Part shown: positions 28,878-58,429 of the stretch, piece by piece
Position numbering within the stretch: the stretch's first letter is position 1
Layout of the letters: every line of letters starts with the position of its first letter
Source: Acidobacteriota bacterium
Lineage (GTDB): Bacteria > Acidobacteriota > Aminicenantia > Aminicenantales > Saccharicenantaceae
DNA: 64,000 bases
Reading direction: 5' to 3'
Assembly (NCBI GenBank): GCA_029569255.1
Contig: JAKQUO010000019.1
Span: 23,175 to 87,174, forward strand
Program-made: the position numbers and the translations under genes
The notes under the pieces: model-generated
Databases searched by the model: none
Seen by the model: only the letters and a program-made list of their open reading frames with translations
What the model was told of the DNA's origin: nothing

Positions 28878-30671
28878 TTATTTCCGGCCGAGGCCTTTGT
28901 CGATCGTCGCCTTCTCGAGGCGGACGACGATGGGACGGCCGTGGGGACAGAGGGCCGGCTGGGAGGTCCTGAAGAGCTCGGCGACGAGGTAGCCCATCTT
29001 GTCCCGGTTCAGCGGCTCCCCGGCCTTGACCGCGGCCTTGCAGGCCATCGTCGCCAGCAGGCGGCCGCGGCGCTCCTCGGCGGGCCTCTCCTCCGCCACC
29101 TCGAGCAGGCTCAGGAAGATGTCCCCGGCCTCCTCCTGTTTGAAGAGCTCCGGGTATTCCTTGAGGGCGAAGGAGCGGCCTCCCATGGGCTCGGCGCGGA
29201 AGCCGAGTTCGTCGAGCAGGGCGGCGCTCTCCTCGAAGGCCGCGGCGGCCGAGGGCGAGAGCTCGAGCACCGGCGGGATGAGGAGCGTCTTCCGGGGCCA
29301 GGCTTTCTCCCGGTCGATCTCCCGGAACTTGTCGTAGAGGACGCGCTCATGGGCGTTGTGCTGGTCGATGACCAAGAGGCCGTCCCCGTCGGCCGCGACG
29401 ATGTACATGTCGGCGAACTGGCCGAGGACGGCGGGGCCGGCCTGGGCGGCCGCCGCCGTCGAAGACGGGGACACGTACCTCGAAGCTCGGTACACGTCCC
29501 CTTTCGCATCCCCTTTCGCGTCCCCCGCCGCGTCGCCGCCAACGTCTCCCGCCCTGTCCGCGCCGATAGCCTCCGCGTCAGCCGGGCCGAAGGCGAGCCC
29601 CGGCGCCCGATAGCCGGCCTCCCCTTCCGCGACCCGGGCCGCCGCCGCGCCGGACCCGCCCGGGACGACCTCCTTGACGACCTGTCCGCGTGAGACGCCC
29701 GCCCCGATCGCCCTCAGGACGAGGCGGAAGACGAGCTGGGTGTCCCGGAAGCGGACCTCGGCCTTGGCCGGATGGACGTTGACGTCGACCTCGCCCGGAG
29801 GGAACTCCAAGAACAGGAACGCCTCCGGCTGCCGGCCTCGTTCGAGGACGCCCGTGTAGGCCTGGCTCAGGGCGGCCATGAGGACGCGGTCCTTGACCGG
29901 ACGGCCGTTGACGAAGAAATGCTGGACGGTCTTGTCCGGCCGTCCGCCCAAAGGCAGCGAGGCCAGCCCCTCGATCCGACCGGGCCCCTCCTCCGCGGCG
30001 ACGTCCATCAGGCGGTCGACCATCTTCCCGCCGAAGAGCTGGAAAACGCGCTCCCGGAGCGTCCCGACGGGCGGACAGGCGATCGTCTCGCGCCCGCCGT
30101 GGACCAGGGTGAAACGGACGCCCGGCGCGCCGAGCGCCGCCTGGGTCACGTACTTGGTGACCGGCCCGAGCTCGGACGAGGCCGAGCGGAGGAACTTCCT
30201 CCGGGCCGGCAGGTTGAAGAAAAGGTCCCGGACCTCGACGCCCGTGCCCCGCGGGAAGGCGATGTCGGTGACGGCGACGAGGCGCTCGCCCTCGCGCTCG
30301 ATCATCGTGCCGCGGTCCGAGGCGCCGTCGAACGTCCGCATGGTCAGCCGCGAGACGGCGGCGATCGAGGCCAGGGCCTCGCCCCGGAAGCCCAGGGTCG
30401 CGATCCGCTCCAGGTCCTCCTCGCGACGGATCTTGCTCGTCGAGTGGCGGCGGAAGCAGAGGGCGGCATCTTCGGCGTCCATGCCGGAGCCGTCGTCCTG
30501 GACCTTGACGAGGGCCTTGCCGCCGTCGGCGAGCTCGATCCGGACCTCCGTCGCCCCGGCGTCGAGCGCGTTCTCGACGAGCTCCTTGACGACCGAGACG
30601 GGCCGCTCGATGACCTCGCCCGCGGCGATCTTTTGCGCGACTTCGTCGGGGAGAACACGGATCTTCCTCAT
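28878..30671 (-). CDS. mutL: DNA mismatch repair protein MutL
   Basis: GHKL ATPase N-terminus (KELVENALDAGA, DDGSGM), a low-complexity linker (GDAAGDAKGDAKGD) and a MutL C-terminal dimerisation domain. Confidence 0.9.
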   Translation of the reverse strand: MRKIRVLPDEVAQKIAAGEVIERPVSVVKELVENALDAGATEVRIELADGGKALVKVQDDGSGMDAEDAALCFRRHSTSKIRREEDLERIATLGFRGEALASIAAVSRLTMRTFDGASDRGTMIEREGERLVAVTDIAFPRGTGVEVRDLFFNLPARRKFLRSASSELGPVTKYVTQAALGAPGVRFTLVHGGRETIACPPVGTLRERVFQLFGGKMVDRLMDVAAEEGPGRIEGLASLPLGGRPDKTVQHFFVNGRPVKDRVLMAALSQAYTGVLERGRQPEAFLFLEFPPGEVDVNVHPAKAEVRFRDTQLVFRLVLRAIGAGVSRGQVVKEVVPGGSGAAAARVAEGEAGYRAPGLAFGPADAEAIGADRAGDVGGDAAGDAKGDAKGDVYRASRYVSPSSTAAAAQAGPAVLGQFADMYIVAADGDGLLVIDQHNAHERVLYDKFREIDREKAWPRKTLLIPPVLELSPSAAAAFEESAALLDELGFRAEPMGGRSFALKEYPELFKQEEAGDIFLSLLEVAEERPAEERRGRLLATMACKAAVKAGEPLNRDKMGYLVAELFRTSQPALCPHGRPIVVRLEKATIDKGLGRK

Positions 30672-39656: not shown

Positions 39657-41881
39657 TGGGGAAGCGGGCCGCGGGGCGGGGATGCCCCCCCCGGAGCGAG
39701 GCGAGGGGAGGGCTTCTGCGCCTGGTCATCATCATCGCCGTCCTCGCGGCCGTCGTCGCGCTCGTGACCGGAAAGGGCCAGGAGAGGACGGCCGGGGGAG
39801 CCCCGGCGAAGGGGCTGCTCGACCTGTTGGGGATCGCGCCCTCGGCGGAGTCGGCCGATTACGTCCGGGCGAAGACCCCGTTCCAGCTCCACACCCTGCT
39901 CACGGAACAGCGCCACCCGAAGACGTGGCGGCTCGGCGAGACGGTCCGCGGGGACACGCTGGCCGGGCTGAGGATGCTCTCCTCGGTCGACGACGACATC
40001 CGGGCCAGGATGGACGGGCTCGCGGCGGCGCCGGAAACGCTCGAGCGGGCGGCTCGGGCGGTCGAGGAGGCCATCGTCGGCGGCCGTAAGGTCTACGTCT
40101 ACGGCTGCGGCGCGACCGGGCGGCTGGCCAAGCAGATGGAGAGCGCTTTCTGGCGCCCGTTCTGGCGCAAGGTCAAGGCGGACCCGACGATCTGGAGACG
40201 CCTCCAGGGACGCATCCCGGCCGGGATCGAGGAGGCCCTCGTCGGCGAGATGACCGGCGGCGACCGGGCCCTGATCAGCTCCCTCGAGGGCTTCGAGGAC
40301 CTCCAGCTCATCGGCCGGCTCCAGCTCCGGGACCGGGGCGTCGCGCGGGGCGACGTCGTCATCTGCGTCACCGAGGGCGGCGAGACGTCGTCCGTCATCG
40401 GGACCGTCCTGGCGGCCCTGGACCAGTGGCGGGCGGAGCCCGGGGCGGGAGGCGCGGAGGAGAGCCGGAAGCGGCTGTATTTCGTCTACAACAACCCGGA
40501 CGACCGGCTCCTGCCCTTCGAGCGGAGCCGGAGCGTCCTGGCCGAGCCGGGCATCGCCAAGATCAACTTGACGACGGGGCCGCAGGCGATCGCCGGCTCG
40601 ACGCGCATGCAGGCGACGACGATCGAGACCTACGTCCTGGCCGCGGTCGTCGAGACGGCGGTCGAGCGGGCCCTGGCGAGGACGCTGGGGAGGCGCGAGC
40701 TGGCCCGGCTGGGGTTCGCGGGGGGAGCGGCGGCGGAGGGGGTCGCGGACAGGCTCCGGGAGTTCGGGGCCGTCCTCGACGGCGCCCGGGCGGCCCTGCC
40801 GGCGCTGGCGGCGCTGACCGACATGGAGGCGGCGGCCTACGCGGCCGGCCGGTTCTCCACGTACTACGCGGAGAAGGGGCTGATCACCGTCTTCATCGAC
40901 AGCACCGAGCGCAGCCCGACCTTCCGGCTCTACCCCCTCGACACGGTCGGCGAACCGGCGCGCAAGTGCTGGATCCAGGTCTGGACGAGGGCGGGGACGG
41001 CCGCGGCGGCGTGGCGGGCCTTCCTGGGCCGGCCGTTCCGGGGGCTGTCCGAGGCGTTGTACCGCCGGCCCTTCGAGACCGAGGTCGAGGACCCCTACCT
41101 GAGGCGGGCCGCCCTCGAGAGCCTGAAGAGGGCCGGCGACGACCAGGCCGGGCGCTACGATTTCTCGCTGTCGAAAGCCAACCGGGAGAGGCGGGGGCCG
41201 AAGAAGGGGGACCTGTGCGTCCTCGTGGCCCTGAGCCCGGAGGAGACGGAGTTCGAGCTCCCGTCGTCGTCGTTCACCGAGGTCCTGCGGCTGGCCCGCG
41301 AGGGCGGCGCGGACGCGGCCGTGCTGACGGTCACGAACCGGCCGGCCAAGGACTTCCCCAAGCTCGAAGAGAGCGTCCGCCGGCGCTGGACGGGGAAGGG
41401 CGGCCGGCTCGTCGTCGTCCCGGTCCACGTCCGGACGGCCGGCGACGCGTTCGGCGTCCGCCAGCAGACGGCGGCCAAGATGCTCCTCAACGCCCACTCG
41501 ACGGCGGTCATGGCCAAGCTGGGCAAGGTCGTCGGCAACACCATGACCAACGTCAGCCCGAGCAACCTCAAGCTCATCGGGAGGGCGACCTACCTCATCC
41601 AGTCCCACGTCAACGACGTCCTGGCCCGCCCCGAGTGGGTGTCGGCCCACGGAGCGCGCGAGCCGATCACGTACGGCGAGGCCAACGCGGTCCTGTACGA
41701 CTCGATCGCCTTCCTCGCGGGCCGGCCGGCCGAGGCGGGGCAGACGGCCGAGGTCGCCCTGTCGATCGTCCGCATCCTCGAGTCGCTGGGCCGGAAGCGC
41801 GGCGTCGGCCCGGCCGAGGCACTGGAGATCGTCAGGACGGTCAGCCTGAGCGACTACCTCAAGACGGGGTCAAACCTTTAA
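39656..41881 (+). CDS. Membrane-anchored SIS-domain protein (MurQ/GCKR-family-like)
   Basis: 741 aa with an N-terminal TM helix and a SIS-like VYVYGCGATGRLAKQ ... GSTRMQATTIETYVL. Its last five codons and TAA stop (GSNL*) are supplied by the terminal repeat of the adjacent mobile element. Confidence 0.55.
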   Translation: MGKRAAGRGCPPRSEARGGLLRLVIIIAVLAAVVALVTGKGQERTAGGAPAKGLLDLLGIAPSAESADYVRAKTPFQLHTLLTEQRHPKTWRLGETVRGDTLAGLRMLSSVDDDIRARMDGLAAAPETLERAARAVEEAIVGGRKVYVYGCGATGRLAKQMESAFWRPFWRKVKADPTIWRRLQGRIPAGIEEALVGEMTGGDRALISSLEGFEDLQLIGRLQLRDRGVARGDVVICVTEGGETSSVIGTVLAALDQWRAEPGAGGAEESRKRLYFVYNNPDDRLLPFERSRSVLAEPGIAKINLTTGPQAIAGSTRMQATTIETYVLAAVVETAVERALARTLGRRELARLGFAGGAAAEGVADRLREFGAVLDGARAALPALAALTDMEAAAYAAGRFSTYYAEKGLITVFIDSTERSPTFRLYPLDTVGEPARKCWIQVWTRAGTAAAAWRAFLGRPFRGLSEALYRRPFETEVEDPYLRRAALESLKRAGDDQAGRYDFSLSKANRERRGPKKGDLCVLVALSPEETEFELPSSSFTEVLRLAREGGADAAVLTVTNRPAKDFPKLEESVRRRWTGKGGRLVVVPVHVRTAGDAFGVRQQTAAKMLLNAHSTAVMAKLGKVVGNTMTNVSPSNLKLIGRATYLIQSHVNDVLARPEWVSAHGAREPITYGEANAVLYDSIAFLAGRPAEAGQTAEVALSIVRILESLGRKRGVGPAEALEIVRTVSLSDYLKTGSNL

Positions 41882-43212
41882 TTTTTTAATTTTTCCCCGT
41901 CCGTGAGAATCGGGACCCGTTTCGGCGTCTTTATCAAGGGCGGATATCCGTCCCTTGAAAAGCGAGCCTCCCATGTCAAGGCAACCGAGAATCGCGTATC
42001 CAGGCGCCTTCTACCATGTCTATTCCCGGGGAAACCAGAAACAACGGATCTTTTTCTCTGACGAGGATCGAGGCTTCTTCCTGAAGATCCTCAGGGACGC
42101 CCATGAGCGATTCTCGGCCATGTGGCATCTTCTGTGCCTCATGGAAAACCATTATCACCTGGGCTTGGAAACGCCGAAGGCCAATCTCTCCCAGATCATG
42201 CATTTCGTCAACTCGGCCTATTCCATCTACCTGAACACGAAACATGAAAGGTGCGGCCATATTTTCCAGGGGCGATTCAAGGCCATCCTCGTTCAAACCG
42301 GCCTCTACGCCCGGACCCTGACGAAGTACATCCACGCGAATCCCGTCCGGAAGGGCATCGTCGCGAAGCCGGAGGATTTCGAGTGGTCGAGTTGCCGGGT
42401 CTATTTTGGGCTTCGGCAGGCGCCCGCCTGGCTCAGCACGAAAACGATCATGGCTTGTTTCGAAGGCAACGCATCAGCCCTGCGAAAGGAGCACGAGGAT
42501 TATCTCGCTTCCCCGGAAGATCTGTCGTTCAGAGAGCAGCTCAGGTCGGCCGCCAGCGTCGGCATCCTGGGCGACGACGATTTCGTAGACAAGCTCCGCC
42601 GGTCTTTCTTGAAGGAGGCTCTCGAAGCGAACGACGATGAGCTCGGAGGACTCAGGAGGCTCCGGATCAGGCCGGAGCTCGGAAGGATCGCGGACGAGAT
42701 CCACAGAGAGTTGGGGGACAAGAACAAGCTGGCCAGGAAGTGCGCGATCTACTTCGCCCGCCATTACGCCGGCTACAAGCTCAAGGAGATCGGGGAATTC
42801 TACGGGATCGGCCCGGCCGCGGTTTCTATCGCGTTCCACGCCATAGAAAGCACCGTGGCCGCCAACGAAGTCTTGAAAGGCGCTTTCGAAAGAATCAAAG
42901 AACGGCTAACCTGGATTATTCACGAATCGACACGGCTCCCAGATGCGAGGCCCGAGGGGTGAAGCCGTACTCTGCGGCACCGCGAATCCCGAGAACGAAC
43001 GAGATGGGGCCGGTTCGGTTCGCCCGAAGGGTCAAAGCGCCCGGATAAGAATAAGCCCGGCTAATGACCTGAATCGTCGTCGAATCTAGACGTCCCTCAG
43101 ACGCGAAGTCCCGGGGGCGAGAACGAACGGGGCGTTTTATGAATAAACCTGGAAGAGCGGGAATCCGGCATCAAGGAAAAGGAGAAAATTAAACTTTTAA
43201 AGGTTTGACCCC
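41866..43212. mobile_element. 1.35-kb TIR-bounded element carrying a Y1 transposase::DnaA_C gene
   Basis: Left end GGGGTCAAACCTTTAATTTTTTAATTTTTCC. Right end (reverse complement) GGGGTCAAACCTTTAAAAGTTTAATTTTCTCC. The low-GC interior fills the whole space between two convergent stop codons. Confidence 0.65.
41955..42962 (+). CDS. IS200/RAYT-like Y1 (HUH) transposase fused to a DnaA C-terminal-like HTH domain
   Basis: HUH motif MENHYHL, catalytic Tyr region TKYIHANPVRKG, and a C-terminal helix-turn-helix resembling the DnaA domain IV (ARKCAIYFARHYAGYKLKEIGEFYGIGPAAVS). Confidence 0.75.
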   Translation: MKSEPPMSRQPRIAYPGAFYHVYSRGNQKQRIFFSDEDRGFFLKILRDAHERFSAMWHLLCLMENHYHLGLETPKANLSQIMHFVNSAYSIYLNTKHERCGHIFQGRFKAILVQTGLYARTLTKYIHANPVRKGIVAKPEDFEWSSCRVYFGLRQAPAWLSTKTIMACFEGNASALRKEHEDYLASPEDLSFREQLRSAASVGILGDDDFVDKLRRSFLKEALEANDDELGGLRRLRIRPELGRIADEIHRELGDKNKLARKCAIYFARHYAGYKLKEIGEFYGIGPAAVSIAFHAIESTVAANEVLKGAFERIKERLTWIIHESTRLPDARPEG

Positions 43213-48522: not shown

Positions 48523-49383
48523 TCAAGGCAGGAAGACCGTGGAGAGATGGTAGGCCCGGGGCGGCAGCTTGCGCCGCAGGGCCTTCCTCTCGAAGAGGCG
48601 GATCCCGGAGCCGTCGTCGCTCGGCGGGGTCAGGAAGACGAACGCGGCCCCGGCGGCCCAGAGCGCTTCGAGGAGCTCGAGCGGCAGGCCGCGTTCGACG
48701 CGGACCACGGCCCGCGAGCCCGCCCGCGAGGCGGCCGCGGCGATGGCGACGGCCCGCTCGGCCGCCGGTTCCTCGGCCAGGCCCTCGTCCCCGAAATGGA
48801 TCCAGGCCCCCCGGCCCGCCGTCCCGGCCAGGCCGTCGGCCGGCGGCCCGACGTGATAGAGGACGAAGTAGGCCCGGCCCTTCTTCGCGGCGGCGGCCAG
48901 GCTCGCCAGGGCCGCGGCGTCCCGGGGATGGGTCCGGTCGGAGATGTGGAAGTCCAGGCCCGCCCCGAGCAGGTCCTCGAGGTCCTGGAAGGACGGGCCG
49001 GAGGCGGCTTCGGCGCCGGGCAGGGGGCCGGCCCAGAAGACCGAAAGGCGCGCGCCGCCCTTGCGGCAGGCGGCCAGCAGGACCTCCCACTCGTCGGCCC
49101 GAGGCCGGGCCTCGTCCGAGGTCAGGACGCGCGCCCCGGCGCGGGCCAGGGCCTCGACCTCGACGAGCCCGAACCGGCCCGTGTCGAGGACGCTGAGGGG
49201 GATGCGGCGGCGGCGGGCGTAGGCGGCGGCGTCGAGGAGGGCCTCGTGGCCGAACTGGTCGTCGCGGATGACGAGGTCCTGGCGCGTCCGGACGCGGTCC
49301 ATGAGCTCGTAGGTCCGAACGACACCGGCCACGCCCTCGGCGATCGTCTTTTCGCTCATCTGCGGAATTTCAAGATATACCAC
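48523..49383 (-). CDS. Hypothetical protein
   Basis: 286 aa with good GC3 periodicity. No family recognised. Confidence 0.4.
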   Translation of the reverse strand: MVYLEIPQMSEKTIAEGVAGVVRTYELMDRVRTRQDLVIRDDQFGHEALLDAAAYARRRRIPLSVLDTGRFGLVEVEALARAGARVLTSDEARPRADEWEVLLAACRKGGARLSVFWAGPLPGAEAASGPSFQDLEDLLGAGLDFHISDRTHPRDAAALASLAAAAKKGRAYFVLYHVGPPADGLAGTAGRGAWIHFGDEGLAEEPAAERAVAIAAAASRAGSRAVVRVERGLPLELLEALWAAGAAFVFLTPPSDDGSGIRLFERKALRRKLPPRAYHLSTVFLP

Positions 49384-49730
49384 CCCGCCCGGAGGCTGTC
49401 AAACGCTCGAGGGCCGAGTCGCTCCCCGGCTAGGCCGCGGAGCGACTCGGAGCATTACCTCGCCCTCATGGGAAAAGTTCGAAGACGCCGGGACGTGCGC
49501 CGGACTCGGCGCCAAAACAACTCGCTCGCCGTTCGCTACGGCTCGCTCAAACACGTTTTGTCGGTTTCCAGGGAAACTGCCCTCGTCCGCCACGCGTCCC
49601 GGCTGAACTTTTCCAAATCGGGCTCGGCAACGCTCCTCGCCGCTTCATTGCGGCCTCCTCGGGAAATCCCTCGGCGCCGTTTCGCTCGCCGGGCACCGGC
49701 AAACGGCCGCGGATGAGGGGCTGAGGGGTG

Positions 49731-49856
49731 GCATCGGAGTGAACATAAAGCGGTGAAATAGCCGGCATCGGTGTCTGAAAACCCGGGACACGTACAAGTA
49801 CATGTCCCGTTTTCAGGCCCCGGGACGGCGTGAAGTTTCACCGCAGTGAACGGAGA
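49731..49856. repeat. Left copy of ~120-bp palindromic inverted repeat bracketing the que cluster
   Basis: About 117 bp with 3 mismatches to the reverse complement of 53133-53253. It contains the internal palindrome TGAAAACCCGGGACACGTAC-A-AGTACATGTCCCGTTTTCA and outer arms GCGGTGAAA/TTTCACCGC. Confidence 0.8.
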
Positions 49857-49896
49857 TGACCCCCGAGGCCCTGCCGCGGCCGGCTGGGGCAGCGCC

Positions 49897-49925
49897 TTGA
49901 TATTGGCGCGGACGTCCTTTATCAT
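49897..49925 (+). promoter_or_regulatory. Candidate queC promoter TTGATA-N17-TATCAT
   Basis: Lies about 20 nt upstream of the GGAGGAG RBS and the GTG start of queC. Confidence 0.5.
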
Positions 49926-49945
49926 CTTCGCGGAGGAGAAGCGTC

Positions 49946-50644
49946 GTGACCTCGTGCGTGGTCCTGTTCTCGGGCGGGCTCGACTCGACGACGGCCCTGG
50001 CCTGGGCGCTCGACCGCTACGACCGGGTCCAGGCCCTGACTTTCGATTACGGCCAGAGGCACCGCGCCGAGGTCCGTTCGGCCCGCCTGACGGCCCGGCG
50101 CCTCGGCGTCCCGCACGCCGTCCTCAAGGTCGACCTGCGGCCCGTCGGCGGCTCGGCCCTGACCGACCCCCGCGCTCCCCTCCCCCGCCCGAAGCGCGCG
50201 TCGAAGCCGCGGACCGGGCCGCCGGCGACCTACGTCCCGTTCCGCAACGGCGTCTTCCTCGCCCTGGCCGCCGCCTGGGCCGAGGCCCGCGGCCTGCGCG
50301 ACCTCGTCTGCGGCTTCCACGTCGCCGACTCCCCCGGCTACCCCGACACGACGAAGGCCTTCGTCAGGGCCATGGAGAGGGCCATCCGGGCCGGGACCGG
50401 GGCCGCTTTCGGCGCCTCCCCCGCGCCCCGGATCGTCGCGCCGCTCCTCGGCCTGGACAAGCCGGGGATCATCCGGCTCGGCCTCCGGCACGGCGCCGAC
50501 TATTCGCGGACCGTCTCCTGCTACGCCGGCGGGGAGCGCCCCTGCGGGACGTGCGCGTCCTGCCGCTACCGGGCCCGGGCCTGGAGGGCCGTCGGCCGCG
50601 AAGACCCCCTCCTCGCCCGCCTCAGAAAGGAAGGACAGCCATGA
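49946..50644 (+). CDS. queC: 7-cyano-7-deazaguanine synthase
   Basis: LFSGGLDSTT PP-loop plus a C-terminal Cys cluster (CYAGGERPCGTCASC). Confidence 0.85.
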   Translation: MTSCVVLFSGGLDSTTALAWALDRYDRVQALTFDYGQRHRAEVRSARLTARRLGVPHAVLKVDLRPVGGSALTDPRAPLPRPKRASKPRTGPPATYVPFRNGVFLALAAAWAEARGLRDLVCGFHVADSPGYPDTTKAFVRAMERAIRAGTGAAFGASPAPRIVAPLLGLDKPGIIRLGLRHGADYSRTVSCYAGGERPCGTCASCRYRARAWRAVGREDPLLARLRKEGQP

Positions 50645-50988
50645 GTTGGACGCTCAAGGTCCGCGACAGGTTCTCGGCCGCCCACTACCTCGAGGGATAC
50701 AGGGGCAAGTGCGAGAAGGTCCACGGCCACACCTTCCGGGTCGAGGTCGCGGTCCGGGCCCGGGAGCTCGACGGGGCCGGGATCGGCTACGACTTCACCG
50801 AGATCAGGAAGGCCCTGGCCGCCGTCCTCCCCGACCACGCTTTCCTCAACGAGGCCTTCCCCTTCAACCCTTCCGCCGAGAACCTGGCCCGCCACTTCTA
50901 CGGCGAGCTCAAGAGGTCCTACCCGGTCGCGTCCGTGACCGTCTGGGAGTCCGAAGATGCCTCGGCCACCTACGCTGAAGACGACTGA
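50641..50988 (+). CDS. queD: 6-carboxy-5,6,7,8-tetrahydropterin synthase
   Basis: 115 aa with a CEKVHGH zinc motif. ATGA overlap with queC. Confidence 0.85.
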   Translation: MSWTLKVRDRFSAAHYLEGYRGKCEKVHGHTFRVEVAVRARELDGAGIGYDFTEIRKALAAVLPDHAFLNEAFPFNPSAENLARHFYGELKRSYPVASVTVWESEDASATYAEDD

Positions 50989-51586
50989 GGTCTTCGCCTC
51001 GGTCCAGGGCGAGGGCCTCCGCCAGGGCGAGCCGACCGTTTTCATCCGCCTGGCCGGCTGCAACCTCCGCTGCGGCTTCTGCGACACCAAGCGGGCCTGG
51101 CGGGGCGGCCGGGAGAGGACGGTCGCCGGGATCGTCGGGGAGGCGGTCCGCCTCCGCCGCCGCCTTCCCGCGGCCTGGGCCTGCGTGACCGGCGGCGAAC
51201 CCCTGGCCCAGGACGTCGGCCCGCTCCTCCGGGCTCTCGGCGCCGCCGGGTTCAAGGTCCAGGTCGAGACGAACGGGACGTTCCCGCCCGTCGCCGGCGC
51301 CGACTGGCTCACGGCCTCGCCCAAGCCGCCGGACTACGATGCCCACCCCGGTATAATAAAGGAAGCGCGGGAGGTCAAGTTGGTCGCCTGCCGGTCGCTC
51401 ACGCTCGACGCCGTGAGGGCCGTCCGGGCGGCCTTCCCCCGGCGGACGCCGCTCCTCATCCAGCCGCAGTCGAACGCCGCCTGGAGCCGGGAGCGCGCGC
51501 TCGGGCTCCTGCGGGGAGCGGCCCGGTCGGGGCTCGAGGGCGTCCGCCTGGCGGTCCAGCTGCACCGGATCTACAAGGTTCGTTAG
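50957..51586 (+). CDS. queE: 7-carboxy-7-deazaguanine synthase (radical SAM)
   Basis: CNLRCGFC cluster motif and a QueE-like length of 209 aa. Confidence 0.8.
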   Translation: MPRPPTLKTTEVFASVQGEGLRQGEPTVFIRLAGCNLRCGFCDTKRAWRGGRERTVAGIVGEAVRLRRRLPAAWACVTGGEPLAQDVGPLLRALGAAGFKVQVETNGTFPPVAGADWLTASPKPPDYDAHPGIIKEAREVKLVACRSLTLDAVRAVRAAFPRRTPLLIQPQSNAAWSRERALGLLRGAARSGLEGVRLAVQLHRIYKVR

Positions 51587-51597
51587 CCCGGGCCGGC

Positions 51598-52572
51598 CTA
51601 TCCGGCGTCCCCCGCGCGGGCGTCCTCCCGGGCGGTCCGGCGCTCGAAGAACCGGTAGCCCGAGCGCGTCAGGTAGACGCCCGCCAGGGTGACGGCCGCC
51701 CCGAGCGCCTGAAGCGCGGTCAGGCGCTCGCCGAGGACGAGGCCGGCGACCAGAATGGACAGGATGGGGGTCAGGTTGCCGTAGATGCCGGTCTTGGCGC
51801 TGCCGACCCTCTTGACCGACTGGTACCATATGGCGAAGCAGAGGAAGATGGCCACCAGGCCCGAATAGGCGATGGCCCCCCAGCCCTGCCAAGGGACGCG
51901 GGCCCACTCGATCCGGACGAGGTCCGCGGCCGCGAAGGGGAGGTAGACCAGGGTCCCGGCGACCGTCCCCAGGGCCGCCACGGGGAAGGCCGGGTTCCGA
52001 TCGAGAAGGGGTTTGGCGAAGACGGTGTAGCCGGCCCAGAAGGCGTTGGCGGCCAGGATCAGCGCGGCCCCGCGCCACGCCTCCCAGGCGAAGACGTGCC
52101 CCCCGTTCTCCCCGGAGATGACGAGGAGGAAGCCGCCGAGGGAGATGACGATGCCGGCCCAGCCGGCGAGCGAGATCCTCTCCTCGCCGACGGCCGTGGC
52201 CAGCAGGGCGATGAAGAGGGGGCTGGTGCCCATGACGATCGAGGCCGTCGAGGCGTTCATCGCGCTGAGGCCCCGGATGAAGACGACCTGGTAGCCCGTG
52301 ATCCCGAGAAGCCCCAGCCCGGCCGCCTTCCAGACGTCGTTCCTCCGGGCCAGGCGGAACATCCGAGGCCGGGCCAGGAGAACGGCCAGATAGGCGGCCG
52401 CCGCGAGGCCCAGCCGGACGGCGTTGAAGCCGTGCGGCGAGAGCGAGCGCAGGCCGATCTTCAGCACCGAGACATTGACGGCCCAGAGCGCGACGACCAG
52501 GACGATCAGGAGGTCGGTCGGGCCCAGGCGGGCGCCGTTCCCCGTCCCGCCCGGTTCCGTCGTCCGGCTCAT
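51598..52572 (-). CDS. DMT superfamily (EamA-like) transporter
   Basis: 324 aa with 10 predicted TM helices and two EamA-type repeats. Confidence 0.7.
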   Translation of the reverse strand: MSRTTEPGGTGNGARLGPTDLLIVLVVALWAVNVSVLKIGLRSLSPHGFNAVRLGLAAAAYLAVLLARPRMFRLARRNDVWKAAGLGLLGITGYQVVFIRGLSAMNASTASIVMGTSPLFIALLATAVGEERISLAGWAGIVISLGGFLLVISGENGGHVFAWEAWRGAALILAANAFWAGYTVFAKPLLDRNPAFPVAALGTVAGTLVYLPFAAADLVRIEWARVPWQGWGAIAYSGLVAIFLCFAIWYQSVKRVGSAKTGIYGNLTPILSILVAGLVLGERLTALQALGAAVTLAGVYLTRSGYRFFERRTAREDARAGDAG

Positions 52573-52623
52573 GTCTCGTTCCTGGAAGGGAAAATGGGGC
52601 CCGGGATAAGCGGGGTCTCCGTC

Positions 52624-53022
52624 TCAGGCCCGCCGCGGCTTCGGCCGGGGGTATCGGGCCTCGACGACCGAGCTCAGGCCGCCGCGGGGATTGAACTCGC
52701 CCCGGACGAGGGCCGCCTTGGGGCGGCAGGCCCGGACGACGTCCTCGAGGACGCGGTTGACGGCGTTCTCGTAGAAGATGCCCAGGTTGCGGTAGGCCAG
52801 GAAGTATTCCTTGAGGGACTTGAGCTCGAGGACGCGCCCGGCGGGCGCGTAGCGCAGGGTGATCCGCCCGAAATCGGGCCGGCCCGTCTTCGGGCAGACG
52901 GAGGTGAACTCGGGGAACTCGACGGCGATCTCGTAGTCCGGGAACTGGTTGGGGAAGGTCTCGAGCGGCGGCAGCTTGGCGTCCAGGCCGGCCTTGGCCT
53001 CGCGGTCGGTGTATCGGGGCAT
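52624..53022 (-). CDS. queF: NADPH-dependent 7-cyano-7-deazaguanine reductase (unimodular)
   Basis: Begins at the internal Met MPRYTD. It has the QueF motif EFTSVCPKTGRPDFG. Confidence 0.85.
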   Translation of the reverse strand: MPRYTDREAKAGLDAKLPPLETFPNQFPDYEIAVEFPEFTSVCPKTGRPDFGRITLRYAPAGRVLELKSLKEYFLAYRNLGIFYENAVNRVLEDVVRACRPKAALVRGEFNPRGGLSSVVEARYPRPKPRRA

Positions 53023-53052
53023 CCTCGTTCTCCCAACTCCTTGAAAGAACCA

Positions 53053-53081
53053 ATGATACACGAATCGTCCGGGCCACACAA
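53053..53081 (-). promoter_or_regulatory. Candidate queF promoter TTGTGT-N17-TATCAT
   Basis: Read on the minus strand. Its spacer resembles that of the queC promoter. Confidence 0.45.
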
Positions 53082-53132
53082 CTGAGCCCCTCGCTTGTCT
53101 TGCTACGGCCGCGGAGGGGCTTCGGGGATCCG

Positions 53133-53253
53133 CTCCGTTCGCTGCGGTGAAACTTCACGCCGTCCCGGGGCCTGAAAACGGGACATGTACTTGTACGTGT
53201 CCCGGGTTTTCAGACACCGATGACGGCTATTTCACCGCTTTATGCTCACTCCG
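53133..53253. repeat. Right copy of ~120-bp palindromic inverted repeat bracketing the que cluster
   Basis: It is the reverse complement of 49731-49856 with about 97% identity. Weaker similarity continues on both sides. Confidence 0.8.
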
Positions 53254-53404
53254 GGATACCCCTCGGCCCCTCTTTCCGCGACCTCCTTCATGAAGGGGAC
53301 ATTATCGCTCGGCTATCACAGCGGGGGCAACGGGCATTCTCCAAGCGCCGCGGTTTCACTATAATAAGGAAGCGAGTTCCGGCCGGACGAACGAGGGATC
53401 CCTG

Positions 53405-53608
53405 ATGAGCGAATGCAAGAGCGCCAAGACGATGAGCCGGTGCAACTGCACCTACGAGCCCTGCCCCCGCAAGGGCGTCTGCTGCGACTGCCTGGCCTAC
53501 CACTGGCGGAACCGGGAGCTGCCGGCCTGCCTGTTCCCGGACGACGCCGAGAGGACCTGGGACCGGTCCCTCCGCCGCTTCATCGAGATCTACAAGGACG
53601 AGGCCTGA
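53405..53608 (+). CDS. Small Cys-rich protein (8 Cys in 67 aa)
   Basis: MSECKSAKTMSRCNCTYEPCPRKGVCCDCLAYHW... The stop overlaps the ATG of the next gene (TGATG). Confidence 0.55.
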   Translation: MSECKSAKTMSRCNCTYEPCPRKGVCCDCLAYHWRNRELPACLFPDDAERTWDRSLRRFIEIYKDEA

Positions 53609-54543
53609 TGGCCGGCCGCCGCTTCGTCTACGGGCCTGTGGCCTCGCGCCGGCTGGGCTTCTCGCTCGGCGTCGACATCATCCCCTACAAGACCTGCACG
53701 CTCGACTGCGTCTACTGCCAGCTCGGCTCGACGGGGAAGACGACCGCCCGGCGCCGGAGCTTCGTCCCGCCCGCGAAGGTCCTGGCCCAGGTCAGGGCGG
53801 CCGTCGCCTCCGGGACGAAGATCGACGTCATCACCTTCTCGGGCTCCGGCGAGCCGACCCTGAACAAGGACATCGGGCGGCTCATCCGGGCGATCAAGCG
53901 GACGACCCGCATCCCCGTCGCCGTCCTGACCAACGGGACGCTCCTCACGCGCCGGGACGTCCGCCGCGACCTGGCCGCGGCCGACATCGTCGTCCCATCG
54001 CTCGACGCCGTCCCGGCCGCGCTCTTCCGCCGCGTCAACCGTCCCCACGCCGGGATCGCCAGCGCCGGGGTCGTCGACGGCCTGGCCCGCTTCCGCGACG
54101 AGTTCGCCGGCGAGATCCGCCTGGAGGTCATGCTGGTCAAGGGGATCAACGATTCCCCGGCCGCGATCGCCGCGCTCAAGGCCGCCGTGGCCCGCATCCG
54201 GCCGGACCGGATCGAGCTGAACACCGTCGTCCGCCCGCCCGCGGAACGGCGGGCCGGGGCGCTCGGACCGGCCGACCTCGAGAAGGTCCGCGCCGCCCTC
54301 GGGCCGCGGGCGCGGATCGTGGCCCCGTTCTCCAGGCGCAAGCCGGCCCCGGCCGCGGGCGGCCTGGAGCGGGCCGTCCTGGCCACGGTCGCGCGGCGTC
54401 CCCAGACGGCGGAGGACATCGCTGTCGCCCTCGGCCGGCACCGCGACGAGGTCCTCAAGACGCTCGCCGCCCTCCTCACCCGGGGCCGGGCCCGCGTGCT
54501 CGTCCACGGCGGCCGGACCTATTTCGCCGGCCGGGGCGCCTAG
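53608..54543 (+). CDS. Radical SAM protein (single CxxxCxxC cluster) with C-terminal winged-helix-like domain
   Basis: CTLDCVYC at residues ~30-37 and a glycine-rich GSGEPTL motif. No additional Cys clusters. C-terminal RAVLATVARRPQTAEDIAVALGRHRDEVLKTLAALLTRGRARVLV. Confidence 0.7.
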   Translation: MAGRRFVYGPVASRRLGFSLGVDIIPYKTCTLDCVYCQLGSTGKTTARRRSFVPPAKVLAQVRAAVASGTKIDVITFSGSGEPTLNKDIGRLIRAIKRTTRIPVAVLTNGTLLTRRDVRRDLAAADIVVPSLDAVPAALFRRVNRPHAGIASAGVVDGLARFRDEFAGEIRLEVMLVKGINDSPAAIAALKAAVARIRPDRIELNTVVRPPAERRAGALGPADLEKVRAALGPRARIVAPFSRRKPAPAAGGLERAVLATVARRPQTAEDIAVALGRHRDEVLKTLAALLTRGRARVLVHGGRTYFAGRGA

Positions 54544-58059: not shown

Positions 58060-58189
58060 GGGGTCAAACCTTTATTTTTTCAATTTCCGCTTCACCCCTC
58101 GGGCCTCGTATCTGTGGGGCCGCCTCGAGTCATGAATAACTCAGGCTATTCGTTAGGCCGGGAAATTAAAAAATTAAAGGTTTGACCCC
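58060..58189. mobile_element. 130-bp MITE-like miniature element with the same terminal inverted repeats as the 41866-43212 element
   Basis: Left end GGGGTCAAACCTTTATTTTTTCAATTTCC. Right end (reverse complement) GGGGTCAAACCTTTAATTTTTTAATTTCC. It is AT-rich and non-coding. Confidence 0.65.
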
Positions 58190-58210
58190 TTCTTTTCTTT
58201 AGCTTAGAAT
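58182..58210 (+). promoter_or_regulatory. Hybrid promoter: -35 TTGACC inside the MITE terminal repeat, 17-nt spacer, -10 TAGAAT in flanking DNA, immediately upstream of the riboswitch
   Basis: Read from the sequence. Spacing and hexamers are close to consensus. Confidence 0.45.
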
Positions 58211-58211
58211 G

Positions 58212-58360
58212 GACGCGGCTTTGTGAGAAGGGAAGTCCGTTAGACGCGGACACAGCCCCCGCTACTGTATCCGGGGACGAATCCCGAAGGACGCCACGGC
58301 CGCCAAGCCGGAAGGCTCGGGAGGAGGACGATCCGGGAGTCAGGAGACCTTCCAAAAAGC
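58212..58360 (+). ncRNA. Cobalamin (AdoCbl) riboswitch
   Basis: AAGGGAAGUCCG..., CCCGCUACUGUAUCCGGGG and the B12 box AGUCAGGAGACC at 58338-58349. CAGGAGACC is repeated at the RBS of the downstream receptor gene. Confidence 0.75.
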
Positions 58361-58429
58361 CCGGTCGCGCGGTCTTCGGGAGGAAGACGGGGCCGGAAAA
58401 AGCGGCGGGGGCGGCCAGGAGACCCCGCC

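What the first reader, a model, noticed from the sequence alone, without database searches (positions are those of the whole stretch)
49731..53253. Queuosine precursor cluster (queC-queD-queE / DMT-queF) bracketed by ~120-bp, ~97% identical palindromic inverted repeats placed upstream of both promoters
Two outward-facing que operons converge inside a 3.4-kb segment. Each is preceded by a promoter of matching architecture (TTGATA/TTGTGT-N17-TATCAT). Each promoter has, about 45 nt further upstream, the same ~120-bp element, and the two copies are reverse complements with only 3 mismatches. The element is itself a long imperfect palindrome (outer GCGGTGAAA/TTTCACCGC, inner TGAAAACCCGGGACACGTAC-A-AGTACATGTCCCGTTTTCA). 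Similarity continues with declining identity into the promoters and outward. Leaders are about 30 nt, so no preQ1 riboswitch is present. Three readings are possible. It could be a duplicated upstream regulatory module, that is a binding site for a dimeric regulator coordinating both operons and kept identical by selection or gene conversion. It could be the terminal repeats of a cassette-like unit that mobilised the whole preQ1 pathway. It could be a structured DNA or RNA hairpin element. The much higher identity of the 120-bp core than of the promoter-proximal flanks is the odd feature.
Basis: seen in the sequence. Interest (0 to 1): 0.7.

Follow-up and report, generated by a model that had tools for sequence, protein, structure and literature searches.

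The report
Dispersed palindromic repeat flanking que genes
The two near-identical palindromes on either side of the queuosine-precursor genes are real, but they are ordinary copies of a small repeat scattered through this group of uncultured Aminicenantes bacteria, next to unrelated genes, not a switch or a mobile cassette specific to queuosine.

Summary
Arms 49735-49882 and 53106-53253 are 94% complementary, and the core is 97.5% identical. Each arm folds into a long imperfect hairpin just upstream of the queC or queF promoter. No riboswitch is present.

The que-specific interpretations do not hold.
Only 4 of them are que loci. The other 46 sit beside unrelated genes, such as EF-P, an aminoacyl-tRNA synthetase, a permease, a UvrD-type helicase and glycogen synthase.
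- Related Aminicenantes genomes keep the same gene order with the same conserved promoters. Most have short intergenic regions without the element. Some carry it in only one region, or in the opposite orientation.
- The queF-side copy is more similar overall to a copy on another contig than to its queC-side partner.

The element is a member of a 156-181 bp, non-coding repeat family with terminal inverted repeats. Its hairpin is kept by compensatory changes (17 of 46 pairs). It lies mostly between divergent promoters. Its tip is a nested short REP-like palindrome, and a second dispersed repeat of about 220 bp lies next to it.

Verdict: a new family of a known kind (MITE/REP-like). Low interest.

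The parts
49705..49881 (+). Element A, queC-side copy (177 nt). Left terminal inverted repeat is about 49705-49728. The asymmetric conserved core is about 49735-49856. Right terminal inverted repeat is about 49861-49881. Its right end faces the queC promoter.
   Evidence: Boundaries come from the alignment of 56 copies, whose flanks are unrelated. Profile HMM hit at 49706-49881, E=6e-34. Hairpin fold.
53107..53283 (-). Element A, queF-side copy (177 nt), reverse complement of the first. Its right end faces the queF promoter and its left end faces the DUF6485 promoter.
   Evidence: Profile HMM hit at 53282-53107, E=6.5e-38.
49773..49818 (.). Tip of the queC-side copy: TGTCTGAAAACC-CGGGACACGTAC-AA-GTACATGTCCCG-TTTTCAGGCC. 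It is built around a short REP-like palindrome (element C) that also occurs on its own elsewhere. It is about 21 nt longer than the tip of most family members.
   Evidence: The A3 alignment shows this tip only in winC, winF, L117 and L147. The same tip is seen in L142, L150, L105 and L123. Free-standing GGGGACAYGTACC...GGTACRTGTCCCC palindromes are found at other loci.
53170..53215 (.). The same nested tip palindrome in the queF-side copy.
49437..49660 (+). Element B, a second dispersed palindromic repeat of about 220 nt, lying directly left of the queC-side copy of A. Its left end, GGCCGCGGAGCGACTCGGAG, resembles the terminal repeat of A.
   Evidence: BLAST finds copies at 79-85% identity in L023, L024, L026, L027, L101, L105/L123, L117 and L119. 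Two of these (L117, L119) are not adjacent to a copy of A. Alignment. Internal inverted repeat 49441-49480/49605-49644.
49897..49925 (+). queC promoter (TTGATA-N17-TATCAT). It is host sequence, not part of the repeat.
   Evidence: Consensus scan, 10 of 12 positions. Conserved as CTTGATATTC...TTTATCATC in relatives with and without the element.
53053..53081 (-). queF promoter. The -10 box TATCAT is ATGATA on the + strand at 53053-53058. The -35 box TTGTGT is at 53076-53081. It is host sequence.
   Evidence: Read from the sequence. The ATGATACACGAA block is conserved in all relatives. The -35 box is weak and the scan did not call it.
49374..49402 (-). Promoter of the divergent upstream gene (48523-49359, hypothetical): TTGACA-N17-TATATC on the - strand. 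Elements B and A lie between this promoter and the queC promoter.
   Evidence: Sequence. AAGATATACCA...TGTCAAACG is conserved in all relatives. In relatives without insertions the two -35 boxes are only about 16-22 nt apart.
49946..53022 (.). The que cluster itself: queC, queD and queE (+), then EamA/DMT and queF (-). These are resident genes, not cargo of the repeats.
   Evidence: Pfam families on record. Same order and neighbours in more than 15 Aminicenantes genomes.

Best explanation
The two palindromes are copies of a lineage-specific, non-coding, dispersed repeat, here called element A. It is MITE/REP-like, 156 nt in its common form and 177 nt here. It has imperfect terminal inverted repeats (GGCCGCGGAAGAAGGGGCYGAGGGG ... 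CCCCGAGGCCCCTCCGCGGCC). Between them is an asymmetric, almost invariant core, and the whole folds into one long hairpin.

Shown: the family is scattered over many unrelated loci in a clade of Aminicenantes. It lies in intergenic DNA, mostly in the spacer between two back-to-back divergent promoters. It is present, absent or inverted at the same locus in related genomes. Its base pairing is maintained by compensatory substitutions.

At the que locus each of the two divergent-promoter regions that bound the cluster has acquired a copy. The queC side has also acquired a second repeat, element B. The tip of A here contains a third, short REP-like palindrome, element C. The two que copies look alike because all copies in this genome look alike. 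They are not kept alike by selection or gene conversion on que regulation.

Inferred: the element spreads without encoding its own enzyme, using one made elsewhere in the genome. It is probably handled as a single-stranded DNA hairpin by a trans-acting transposase. The reasons are the absence of a target-site duplication, conserved unpaired motifs, and two G-T wobbles that are invariant on one strand only. A Y1/HUH enzyme of the IS200/RAYT type is my leading guess, at a confidence of only about 0.3.

Also inferred: it accumulates between divergent promoters because that spacer is the one place in these compact intergenic regions where an insertion breaks nothing. Negatively supercoiled, easily melted DNA upstream of active promoters may also be a preferred target. 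Any effect on que expression is most likely incidental.
For: Dispersal. The exact-pattern scan GGACGGCGTGAAGNTTCACCGCAG found 50 metagenome stretches. tblastn with the window's que-locus proteins finds a que locus in only 4 of them, L106, L107, L120 and L141.

Sharp boundaries. In the alignment of 56 copies the flanks are unrelated beyond the terminal repeats.

Unrelated neighbours. Pfam of 30 flanking genes gives a HAD hydrolase, an ECF sigma factor, a UvrD/PD-(D/E)XK helicase-nuclease, an IMP cyclohydrolase-like protein, a phosphate-binding protein, a class II tRNA synthetase, AIR carboxylase, peptidase M14, an amino-acid permease, glycogen synthase, EF-P, an aminotransferase and others. None is a queuosine gene.

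Probably the same genome. Copies with the window-type tip lie on other contigs of an assembly that also holds the window's que locus. These are ERZ795061 NODE-242 and NODE-1078, at coverage 6.7 and 6.1 against 6.5 for the que contig.

The que pair is not special. Core identity is 97.5% for winC-winF and 95.9% for winF-L117. Over the whole element, winF-L117 is 92.1% and winC-winF is 85.9%.

Presence/absence at the que locus. Gene order is conserved. L021, L028, L029 and L031 have intergenic regions of about 110-120 nt upstream of queC with the same promoters and no element. L024, L025, L026 and L029 have 86-125 nt upstream of queF with no element. L027 has the element on the queF side only and pointing at DUF6485. 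In L022, L107, L106 and L120 the queC-side copy is inverted relative to the window. L025 keeps only a 54-nt pair of terminal repeats.

Structure. There are 46 pairs, 96.2% of cells are paired, and 17 pairs show changes on both sides. Shuffles give 8.3 (0 of 500 reach the observed value) and slid registers give 3-6.

Context. Of 25 classifiable copies, 17 are divergent, 6 tandem and 2 convergent. The background for intergenic regions in the same loci is 41/80/22 (gene calls are crude).

Other checks. No Rfam family matches. No consistent target-site duplication is seen.
Against: No autonomous partner, meaning a transposase gene flanked by the same termini, was found in the roughly 1.2 Mb of sequence held. 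Transposition is therefore inferred, not shown.

The one Y1-transposase-like gene in the window is flanked by a different repeat.

There is no target-site duplication, so the element is not a textbook MITE.

The left half of the core is nearly invariant across copies from several species, although the search pattern did not select for it. The hairpin also shows covariation. Both could equally mean that the family has a host function, as RNA or as a protein-binding structure.

The window holds only 2 copies in 64 kb, and both are at que. Several related species also carry the element in one or both que-flanking regions. Shared ancestry explains this, but a local preference is not excluded.

The 50-hit list may be capped, and it selects for one conserved 23-mer. 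Copy number per genome is therefore unknown.
Confidence: 0.85

Rival explanations
1. The repeat family has been recruited by the host as a general promoter-upstream module. Its long palindrome could extrude as a cruciform, or bind a nucleoid-associated or global regulator. It would then insulate or tune divergent promoter pairs genome-wide, que included. This is compatible with a mobile origin.
For: Copies are enriched in divergent intergenic regions, 17 of 25 against a background of about 29%. The right end usually lies a few tens of nt upstream of a -35/-10 pair. The left core, which the search did not select for, is almost invariant across species, and conserved tandem G-A mismatches sit in two stems. 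Base pairing is maintained. Precedent: Correia elements and BIMEs carry IHF sites, and Correia elements carry promoters (PMC3184786).
Against: The element is absent from the same promoters in close relatives, which keep the promoter boxes unchanged. It occurs in either orientation in orthologous intergenic regions. Its distance to the -35 box varies from 10 to 46 nt. Survival bias explains the location: in insertion-free relatives the spacer between the two -35 boxes is the only dispensable DNA. No binding protein is known.
Confidence: 0.1
2. The element is a structured RNA. It could be a small RNA gene family, or a 3'-UTR or leader hairpin that stabilises or terminates transcripts, made in the left-to-right orientation.
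For: The consensus hairpin is strongly supported by covariation. Two U-G pairs are invariant on this strand and would be A-C on the other. G-U cells outnumber A-C cells, about 111 to 23, or 42 to 23 without the two invariant pairs. In 5 of 6 tandem contexts the element follows an upstream gene's stop codon in the sense orientation. A weak promoter-like site at 53330-53301 (-) could read through the queF-side copy.
Against: Most copies lie between divergent promoters, upstream of the -35 boxes. There no known transcript covers them. The element has no conserved promoter or U-tract terminator of its own. Both orientations occur at the same locus. No Rfam family matches. A palindromic DNA repeat gives the same covariation signal.
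Confidence: 0.04
3. One reading: a duplicated operator or upstream site for a dimeric regulator that coordinates the two que operons.
For: Both que operons in this genome have a copy in the same orientation relative to the promoter. Several relatives also carry copies at the que locus.
Against: 46 of 50 hits lie at loci without que genes. The element is missing from one or both que promoters in most relatives, and is inverted in others. The queF-side copy is closer to a copy upstream of a peptidase gene than to the queC-side copy.
Confidence: 0.02
4. One reading: the repeats are the ends of a cassette that mobilised the preQ1 pathway, or of an invertible 3.2-kb segment.
For: The two copies are inverted and bracket the cluster exactly. 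Short-read contigs of 3352 nt end inside both repeats.
Against: The same genes sit between the same neighbours in more than 15 Aminicenantes genomes, with or without repeats. All 8 longer assemblies of this species show one and the same arrangement and orientation. The contig breaks are what a de Bruijn assembler does at any repeat.
Confidence: 0.01

Closest known systems
Correia elements (CREE/NEMIS) of Neisseria, the classic bacterial MITE
   Same: Similar size (about 104-157 bp against 156-181 bp). Terminal inverted repeats of about 25 nt around a core. Non-coding, with many dispersed intergenic copies. Often on the 5' side of genes. Folds into a long hairpin. Presence/absence differs between related strains (PMC3184786; here).
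   Different: Correia elements duplicate a target site, a feature given for MITEs generally in PMC3184786 (the TA target is from my own knowledge). They also carry an IHF site and promoter boxes. Here no consistent duplication was found. No promoter-like boxes are conserved inside the element. No sequence similarity is evident, and the host phylum (Acidobacteriota/Aminicenantes) is unrelated.
REP / BIME / REPIN elements mobilised by RAYT (Y1) transposases
   Same: GC-rich extragenic palindromes that are thought to act as single-stranded hairpins. No target-site duplication. Conserved unpaired bases next to stems. Nesting and clustering with other repeats. A Y1_Tnp gene is present in the same window. 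The small element C at the tip of A looks like a genuine REP of about 31-35 nt.
   Different: REPs are 20-40 bp, carry a GTAG or CGTC tag, lie mostly downstream of genes and flank their RAYT gene (PMC3733652). Element A is 156 nt and has no conserved GTAG or CGTC tag. It lies mostly upstream of genes in divergent regions. It does not flank the Y1 gene of the window, which is flanked by a different repeat, GGGGTCAAACC....
ERIC (enterobacterial repetitive intergenic consensus) and RUP/BOX-type repeats
   Same: Imperfect palindromes of about 107-127 bp, intergenic, with a conserved core. Variants have internal insertions, comparable to the longer tip of the window-type copies (PMC3184786).
   Different: According to PMC3184786, ERIC-type sequences have target duplications and a TA motif at both ends. 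That ERIC lies mainly in transcribed regions is my own knowledge. Here most copies lie outside known transcription units, between -35 boxes.
preQ1 riboswitches (classes I-III), the usual cis-regulators of queCDEF
   Same: Only the genomic neighbourhood: a structured element upstream of que genes.
   Different: No Rfam match even at E<=10. The element lies upstream of the promoters, not in the leader. It is found next to unrelated genes.

Membership tests
MITE (as defined in PMC3184786) | Small (usually under 200 bp, up to about 400), with no transposase gene | tested here: met
   156 nt in the common form and 177 nt in the window. No ORF is conserved across copies.
MITE (as defined in PMC3184786) | Terminal inverted repeats around a core | tested here: met
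   GGCCGCGGAAGAAGGGGCYGAGGGG ... CCCCGAGGCCCCTCCGCGGCC in nearly all copies. Changes are compensated on the other arm, for example GGCTGCTG/CAGCAGCC, GGCCGCCG/CGGCGGCC and GGCCACGG/CCGTGGCC.
MITE (as defined in PMC3184786) | Flanked by a target-site duplication (direct repeats) | tested here: not met
   The flanks of about 40 distinct copies show no consistent direct repeat. There is only a frequent GA before the left end and a G after the right end. Matches of 2-3 nt occur in a minority, at a level expected by chance. No clean empty-site comparison was possible because the orthologous regions are too diverged.
MITE (as defined in PMC3184786) | Multiple dispersed copies, with presence/absence between related genomes | tested here: met
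   At least 46 loci without que genes. The que-locus regions are filled, empty or hold a 54-nt remnant in different relatives.
MITE (as defined in PMC3184786) | Terminal repeats shared with an autonomous insertion sequence in the same genomes | tested here: inconclusive
   No pair of termini encloses a transposase gene in the roughly 1.2 Mb held.
MITE (as defined in PMC3184786) | Folds into a long, stable stem-loop | tested here: met
REP / REPIN-RAYT (PMC3733652) | Palindromic unit of 20-40 bp tagged by GTAG or CGTC at one end | tested here: not met
   Element A is 156 nt. No GTAG or CGTC is conserved at a stem foot in the A3 alignment.
REP / REPIN-RAYT (PMC3733652) | Copies flank a RAYT (Y1 transposase) gene | tested here: not met
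   The Y1_Tnp gene at 41955-42962 is flanked by inverted GGGGTCAAACCTTTAAT... repeats, not by element A. The only other Y1-like hit, in L147, lies 3 kb from the element. Other Y1 genes of the genome could not be examined.
REP / REPIN-RAYT (PMC3733652) | Predominantly downstream of coding regions | tested here: not met
   17 of 25 classifiable copies lie in divergent (5'-5') regions and only 2 in convergent ones (gene calls are crude).
preQ1 riboswitch (Rfam preQ1-I, II, III) | Matches the covariance model and lies in the 5' leader of a que or transporter gene | tested here: not met
   No match at gathering score or at E<=10. The element lies upstream of the -35 boxes.
Dedicated operator of a que regulon | Conserved upstream of que operons in related genomes, at a fixed position and orientation, and restricted to the regulon | tested here: not met
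   Absent from most relatives, inverted in L022/L106 and L027, and present next to about 30 unrelated gene families.
Composite transposon or gene cassette bounded by inverted repeats | The bracketed genes are present or absent as a block between the same flanks | tested here: not met
   The block and its neighbours are syntenic in more than 15 genomes, irrespective of the repeats.
Invertible promoter (inverton) | Inverted repeats around a promoter-bearing segment, both orientations present within one population, and a recombinase nearby | tested here: inconclusive
   Both orientations are seen between species in 4 of about 9 orthologous regions. All 8 assemblies of the window species are identical. 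No conserved promoter boxes lie inside the element. Adjacent recombinases were not looked for, and raw reads were not available.

The most novel reading that the evidence does not exclude
The family is not just selfish DNA. It could be a host-recruited structural module placed between divergent promoters. It might act as a cruciform-forming or protein-bound insulator. It might also flip in place between its terminal repeats and so bias which of two back-to-back genes is favoured. That would explain the near-invariant asymmetric core across species, the conserved tandem G-A mismatches, the excess in divergent regions, and the opposite orientations seen in orthologous regions.
Probability: 0.1. 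Interest if true: 0.55.

Novelty: new member of a known kind. Interest (0 to 1): 0.2.

Why it matters
For queuosine biology it does not matter. There is no new regulator, riboswitch or mobile preQ1 cassette here.

Its modest value lies elsewhere. It documents three previously undescribed, nested repeat families (A, B and C) in Aminicenantes, an uncultured lineage abundant in anaerobic digesters. No paper in the searched library describes them. Such repeats break short-read assemblies at exactly these positions. They can also be mistaken for regulatory elements.

The family's strong preference for the spacer between divergent promoters is a small, testable lead. So are the absence of a target duplication and the strand-asymmetric hairpin. 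Together they bear on how hairpin-type elements choose their targets.

Tried and rejected
- Rfam at gathering score over the whole window, and at E<=10 over 49300-53700, found nothing in the region. Only a cobalamin riboswitch and two tRNAs lie elsewhere.
- Further copies in the window were sought by BLAST with word size 7 and by a profile HMM of 35 copies. None was found beyond the two.
- Eight assemblies of the same species were compared for orientation or sequence variants. All are identical, so they gave no information on flipping or inversion.
- Inspection of flanks for a target-site duplication gave no consistent repeat. An earlier fuzzy-regex script for this timed out.
- An autonomous element was sought as termini enclosing a transposase, and by tblastn with the window's Y1 transposase. 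Neither found anything.
- I asked whether opposite orientations in orthologous regions come from flipping in place or from independent insertion. The junction sequences are too diverged to decide.
- Pfam on 30 flanking genes showed no common theme, so a regulon is not indicated.
- Gene conversion or selection keeping the two que copies alike was rejected. The queF-side copy is closer overall to L117 than to the queC-side copy.
- A promoter inside the element (TTGAGG-N16-CATAAA) was considered and rejected. The -35-like part is present only in some copies.
- The first attempt at count of structure pairs failed because the structure string had the wrong length. It was rerun.
- A literature search for Aminicenantes and palindromic repeats found nothing relevant.

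Full report
1. THE OBSERVATION

The window carries an inverted repeat with arms 49735-49882 and 53106-53253. The arms are 148 nt, 94% complementary and 3223 nt apart. In a pairwise alignment the central part is almost free of mismatches, and the core is 97.5% identical. The 40-nt inner palindrome occurs exactly twice in 64 kb, against 0 expected in shuffles. Each copy folds as one long imperfect hairpin.

The repeat brackets five genes:
- queC, 49946-50644 (+)
- queD, 50641-50988 (+)
- queE, 50957-51586 (+)
- an EamA/DMT transporter gene, 51598-52572 (-)
- queF, 52624-53022 (-)

The Pfam families on record for identical proteins are QueC, PTPS, Radical_SAM, EamA and QueF.

The queC promoter TTGATA-N17-TATCAT at 49897-49925 is picked up by the consensus scan. 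No Rfam family matches the region at gathering score or at E<=10, so no preQ1 riboswitch is present. The description is therefore accurate.

2. WHOSE GENOME, AND WHAT RELATIVES LOOK LIKE

QueC homologues at 75-84% identity come from Candidatus Aminicenantes (Acidobacteriota) metagenome-assembled genomes. Identical proteins occur in many anaerobic-digester assemblies. Eighty loci from species-representative genomes were fetched around queC and compared with the window's proteins by tblastn.

The gene order is hypothetical gene (-) | queC-queD-queE (+) | DMT-queF (-) | DUF6485-radical SAM (+). It is conserved in many Aminicenantes genomes. This rules out the cassette reading.

The intergenic regions are the informative part. 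In relatives such as L021, L028, L029 and L031 the region upstream of queC is only about 110-120 nt. It holds two back-to-back promoters. One belongs to the upstream gene (TGTCAAACG ... AAGATATACCA on the + strand). The other belongs to queC (CTTGATATTC ... TTTATCATC). Only about 16-22 nt separate the two -35 boxes. In L024, L025, L026 and L029 the region between queF and DUF6485 is 86-125 nt. It holds the conserved ATGATACACGAA (the queF -10 box) and a TATAAT for DUF6485.

The window has the same promoter boxes, but 587 nt and 383 nt between the start codons. The extra DNA sits exactly between the divergent promoters. The repeats are therefore insertions into resident intergenic regions.

Other relatives differ again:
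- L022 has a copy in both regions, but the queC-side copy is inverted relative to the window.
- L027 has a copy only on the queF side, pointing towards DUF6485.
- L025 keeps only a 54-nt pair of the terminal repeats.
- L033, L055 and L031 have unrelated palindromes at these sites.

3. IS IT SPECIFIC TO QUE?

A 23-base signature shared by the four copies then known (GGACGGCGTGAAGNTTCACCGCAG) was searched in the metagenome collection. It returned 50 stretches, which may be a cap, since the window's own JGI contigs were not among them. Only L106, L107, L120 and L141 contain que genes.

Pfam annotation of 30 flanking genes shows no common theme. The genes include:
- a HAD hydrolase and an ECF sigma factor
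- a UvrD/PD-(D/E)XK helicase-nuclease
- an IMP cyclohydrolase-like protein and AIR carboxylase
- a phosphate-binding protein and an amino-acid permease
- a class II aminoacyl-tRNA synthetase and EF-P
- peptidases M14 and M42, and an amidohydrolase
- a LOG-like protein, glycogen synthase and an aminotransferase
- TonB-domain proteins

Copies with the window-specific tip lie on other contigs of an assembly that also contains the window's que locus. These are ERZ795061 NODE-242 and NODE-1078. Their coverage is 6.7 and 6.1, against 6.5 for the que contig, and their G+C content is similar. They are therefore probably from the same genome.

Among these copies, core identities are:

| Pair | Core identity | Whole-element identity |
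|---|---|---|
| winC-winF | 97.5% | 85.9% |
| winF-L117 | 95.9% | 92.1% |
| winC-L117 | 95.0% | 85.3% |
| winC/winF-L147 | about 93% | 83.6% |

Over the whole element, winF is closer to L117 than to winC. The high similarity of the two que copies is therefore the family norm. It is not evidence for selection or gene conversion tied to que.

4. ANATOMY OF THE FAMILY (ELEMENT A)

An alignment of 56 copies gives sharp ends, with unrelated flanks beyond them. The common form is 156 nt. The window form is 177 nt, at 49705-49881 and 53107-53283. From the outside in, the element consists of:
- imperfect terminal inverted repeats, GGCCGCGGAAGAAGGGGCYGAGGGG and CCCCGAGGCCCCTCCGCGGCC
- a second stem, (T)ATCC/GGAT or variants of it
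- an asymmetric internal loop with invariant CGGAGYGAGCATAAA on the left and AGCGARCGGAG on the right
- the invariant stem GCGGTGAAWT/GWTTCACCGC, in which W covaries (A-T in 13 copies, T-A in 20)
- stems GCCG/CGGC and TCGG/CCGG, with a GTGAAG bulge
- a variable tip

RNAalifold gives 46 pairs. On 35 distinct copies, 96.2% of cells are paired and 17 pairs show changes on both sides. Shuffles give 8.3, with 0 of 500 reaching the observed value, and slid registers give 3-6.

Two U-G (T-G) pairs are invariant on the strand shown and would be A-C on the other strand. Tandem G-A mismatches are conserved in two stems. This mild strand asymmetry fits a single-stranded form, DNA or RNA, of one particular strand.

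No consistent target-site duplication is present. No copy encloses a gene.

5. NESTING AND NEIGHBOURS

It is built on a short palindrome, GGGGACAYGTACC-N4-6-GGTACRTGTCCCC. That palindrome occurs on its own at many other loci, and once more in the window at 29466-29500. It is a REP-like family of its own, element C.

Directly left of the queC-side copy lies a second dispersed repeat of about 220 nt, element B, at about 49437-49660. It is found at 79-85% identity in L023, L024 and L026 (same region), in L027 (the other region), in L101, L105/L123 and L117 (beside other A copies), and in L119 (alone). Its left end resembles the terminal repeat of A, so the same machinery may move both. The 587-nt region upstream of queC is thus two promoters plus B plus A with C nested inside it.

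6. WHERE THE FAMILY SITS

Gene calls were made with a simple third-position G+C method and are approximate. Of 25 classifiable copies:
- 17 lie in divergent regions
- 6 lie in tandem regions, 5 of them in the sense orientation just after the upstream stop codon
- 2 lie in convergent regions

Intergenic regions of the same loci split 41/80/22. If the que regions are counted once each, the numbers are 13, 6 and 2.

The right end usually lies a few tens of nt upstream of a -35/-10 pair. In 4 of about 9 orthologous regions occupied in more than one species, the orientation differs between species. The junctions are too diverged to tell flipping in place from independent insertion. All 8 assemblies of the window species that span the regions are identical in sequence and orientation.

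7. MECHANISM

Shown: the element is a dispersed, non-coding palindromic repeat with terminal inverted repeats. It is variably present and variably oriented. Its base pairing is maintained. It is concentrated between divergent promoters.

Inferred: it spreads without encoding its own enzyme. It is probably handled as a single-stranded hairpin by an enzyme supplied in trans. The absence of a target duplication, the conserved unpaired motifs and the strand-asymmetric wobbles point towards a Y1/HUH-type enzyme, as for IS200/IS605 derivatives and REP-RAYT systems. A Y1_Tnp gene lies in the window at 41955-42962. That gene, however, is flanked by a different repeat, GGGGTCAAACC.... The link is therefore a guess, at a confidence of about 0.3.

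The concentration between divergent promoters is most simply survival bias. In these compact regions the spacer between the two -35 boxes is the only place where 150-450 nt can be added without breaking a promoter or a leader. A preference for negatively supercoiled, easily melted DNA upstream of active promoters is a plausible addition, but it is untested.

8. RIVALS

A host-recruited promoter-upstream module, acting as a cruciform, insulator or protein platform, is not excluded (about 0.1). The near-invariant left core was not selected by the search, and the enrichment in divergent regions argues for this reading. The variable presence, orientation and spacing at orthologous promoters argue against it.

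A structured RNA (about 0.04) fits the covariation and the G-U asymmetry. It does not fit the position upstream of promoters or the lack of its own promoter and terminator.

The que operator (about 0.02) and the cassette (about 0.01) are contradicted, as described above.

9. COMPARISON WITH KNOWN FAMILIES

The closest analogues in behaviour are bacterial MITEs such as the Correia elements. They match in size, terminal repeats, long hairpin, location on the 5' side of genes, and presence/absence polymorphism (PMC3184786). The defining target-site duplication was tested and not found, and no autonomous partner is known. The element therefore works like a MITE but is not a textbook member.

REP/REPIN-RAYT elements share the lack of a duplication and the hairpin logic. 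They are 20-40 bp, carry a GTAG or CGTC tag, lie mostly downstream of genes and flank their RAYT gene (PMC3733652). None of these four features holds for A, although element C looks REP-like.

It is not a riboswitch. No paper in the searched library describes these Aminicenantes repeats.

10. VERDICT

The feature is real and its hairpin is real, but the link to queuosine is coincidental. It is a new family of a known kind of element. Interest is low, at 0.2. Residual interest lies in the family-wide preference for divergent promoters and in the possibility of flipping in place.

Noticed in passing
window 41866-43212: A 329-335 aa Y1_Tnp (IS200/RAYT-like) gene at 41955-42962 (+). It is flanked by inverted copies of an AT-rich repeat, GGGGTCAAACCTTTAATTTTTT..., at 41866-41896 (+) and 43197-43212 (-). 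This is the arrangement described for REP-RAYT units. The repeat is unrelated to element A.
   Followed up: partly
window 58060-58189: An inverted doublet of the same GGGGTCAAACCTTTA... repeat (29-nt arms, 93% complementary, 72 nt apart). It ends 4 nt before the cobalamin riboswitch at 58193-58370.
   Followed up: no
window 49437-49660: Element B, a dispersed palindromic repeat of about 220 nt. Its central core is highly conserved (CGGACTCGGCGCCAAAACAACTCGCTCGG...CTCAAACACGTTTTGTCGG...). It occurs in at least 9 loci, five times directly left of a copy of A. It has no Rfam match. Its high conservation at different loci could also mean an unrecognised non-coding RNA.
   Followed up: partly
window 29466-29500; also L110, L111, L117, L128, L130, L143, L147, L033: Element C, a short REP-like palindrome, GGGGACAYGTACC-N4-6-GGTACRTGTCCCC, dispersed in these genomes. 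The window copy at 29466-29500 appears to lie inside a predicted gene (28878-30671, -), unless that gene call is wrong.
   Followed up: partly
L025 4880-4936: A 54-nt 'empty shell' of element A, with the two terminal repeats joined and no core (GGCTGCGGAGGGGCCTCTGGGGACGATCTCCCCTCGGCCCCTATTTCCGCAGCC). It lies in the region upstream of queC. It suggests internal deletion of an older insertion, and the two arms carry a compensated change (GGCTGCGG/CCGCAGCC).
   Followed up: no
L007-L010, L013-L020 (Logan contigs): Short-read contigs of this species end inside the two repeat copies. Several contigs are exactly the 3352-nt segment between them. This is a practical example of these repeats fragmenting assemblies.
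   Followed up: yes
L033 4880-4960; L055 and L031 intergenic regions: More distant relatives carry different, unrelated palindromic insertions at the same two que-flanking divergent-promoter regions. The spacer between back-to-back promoters seems to be a general landing or survival site for small repeats in this lineage.
   Followed up: no
window 53405-54543: A small cysteine-rich DUF6485 protein (67 aa) is translationally coupled to a radical SAM enzyme (311 aa). The pair is conserved next to queF in many Aminicenantes genomes. A functional link to 7-deazaguanine chemistry is conceivable but was not examined.
   Followed up: no
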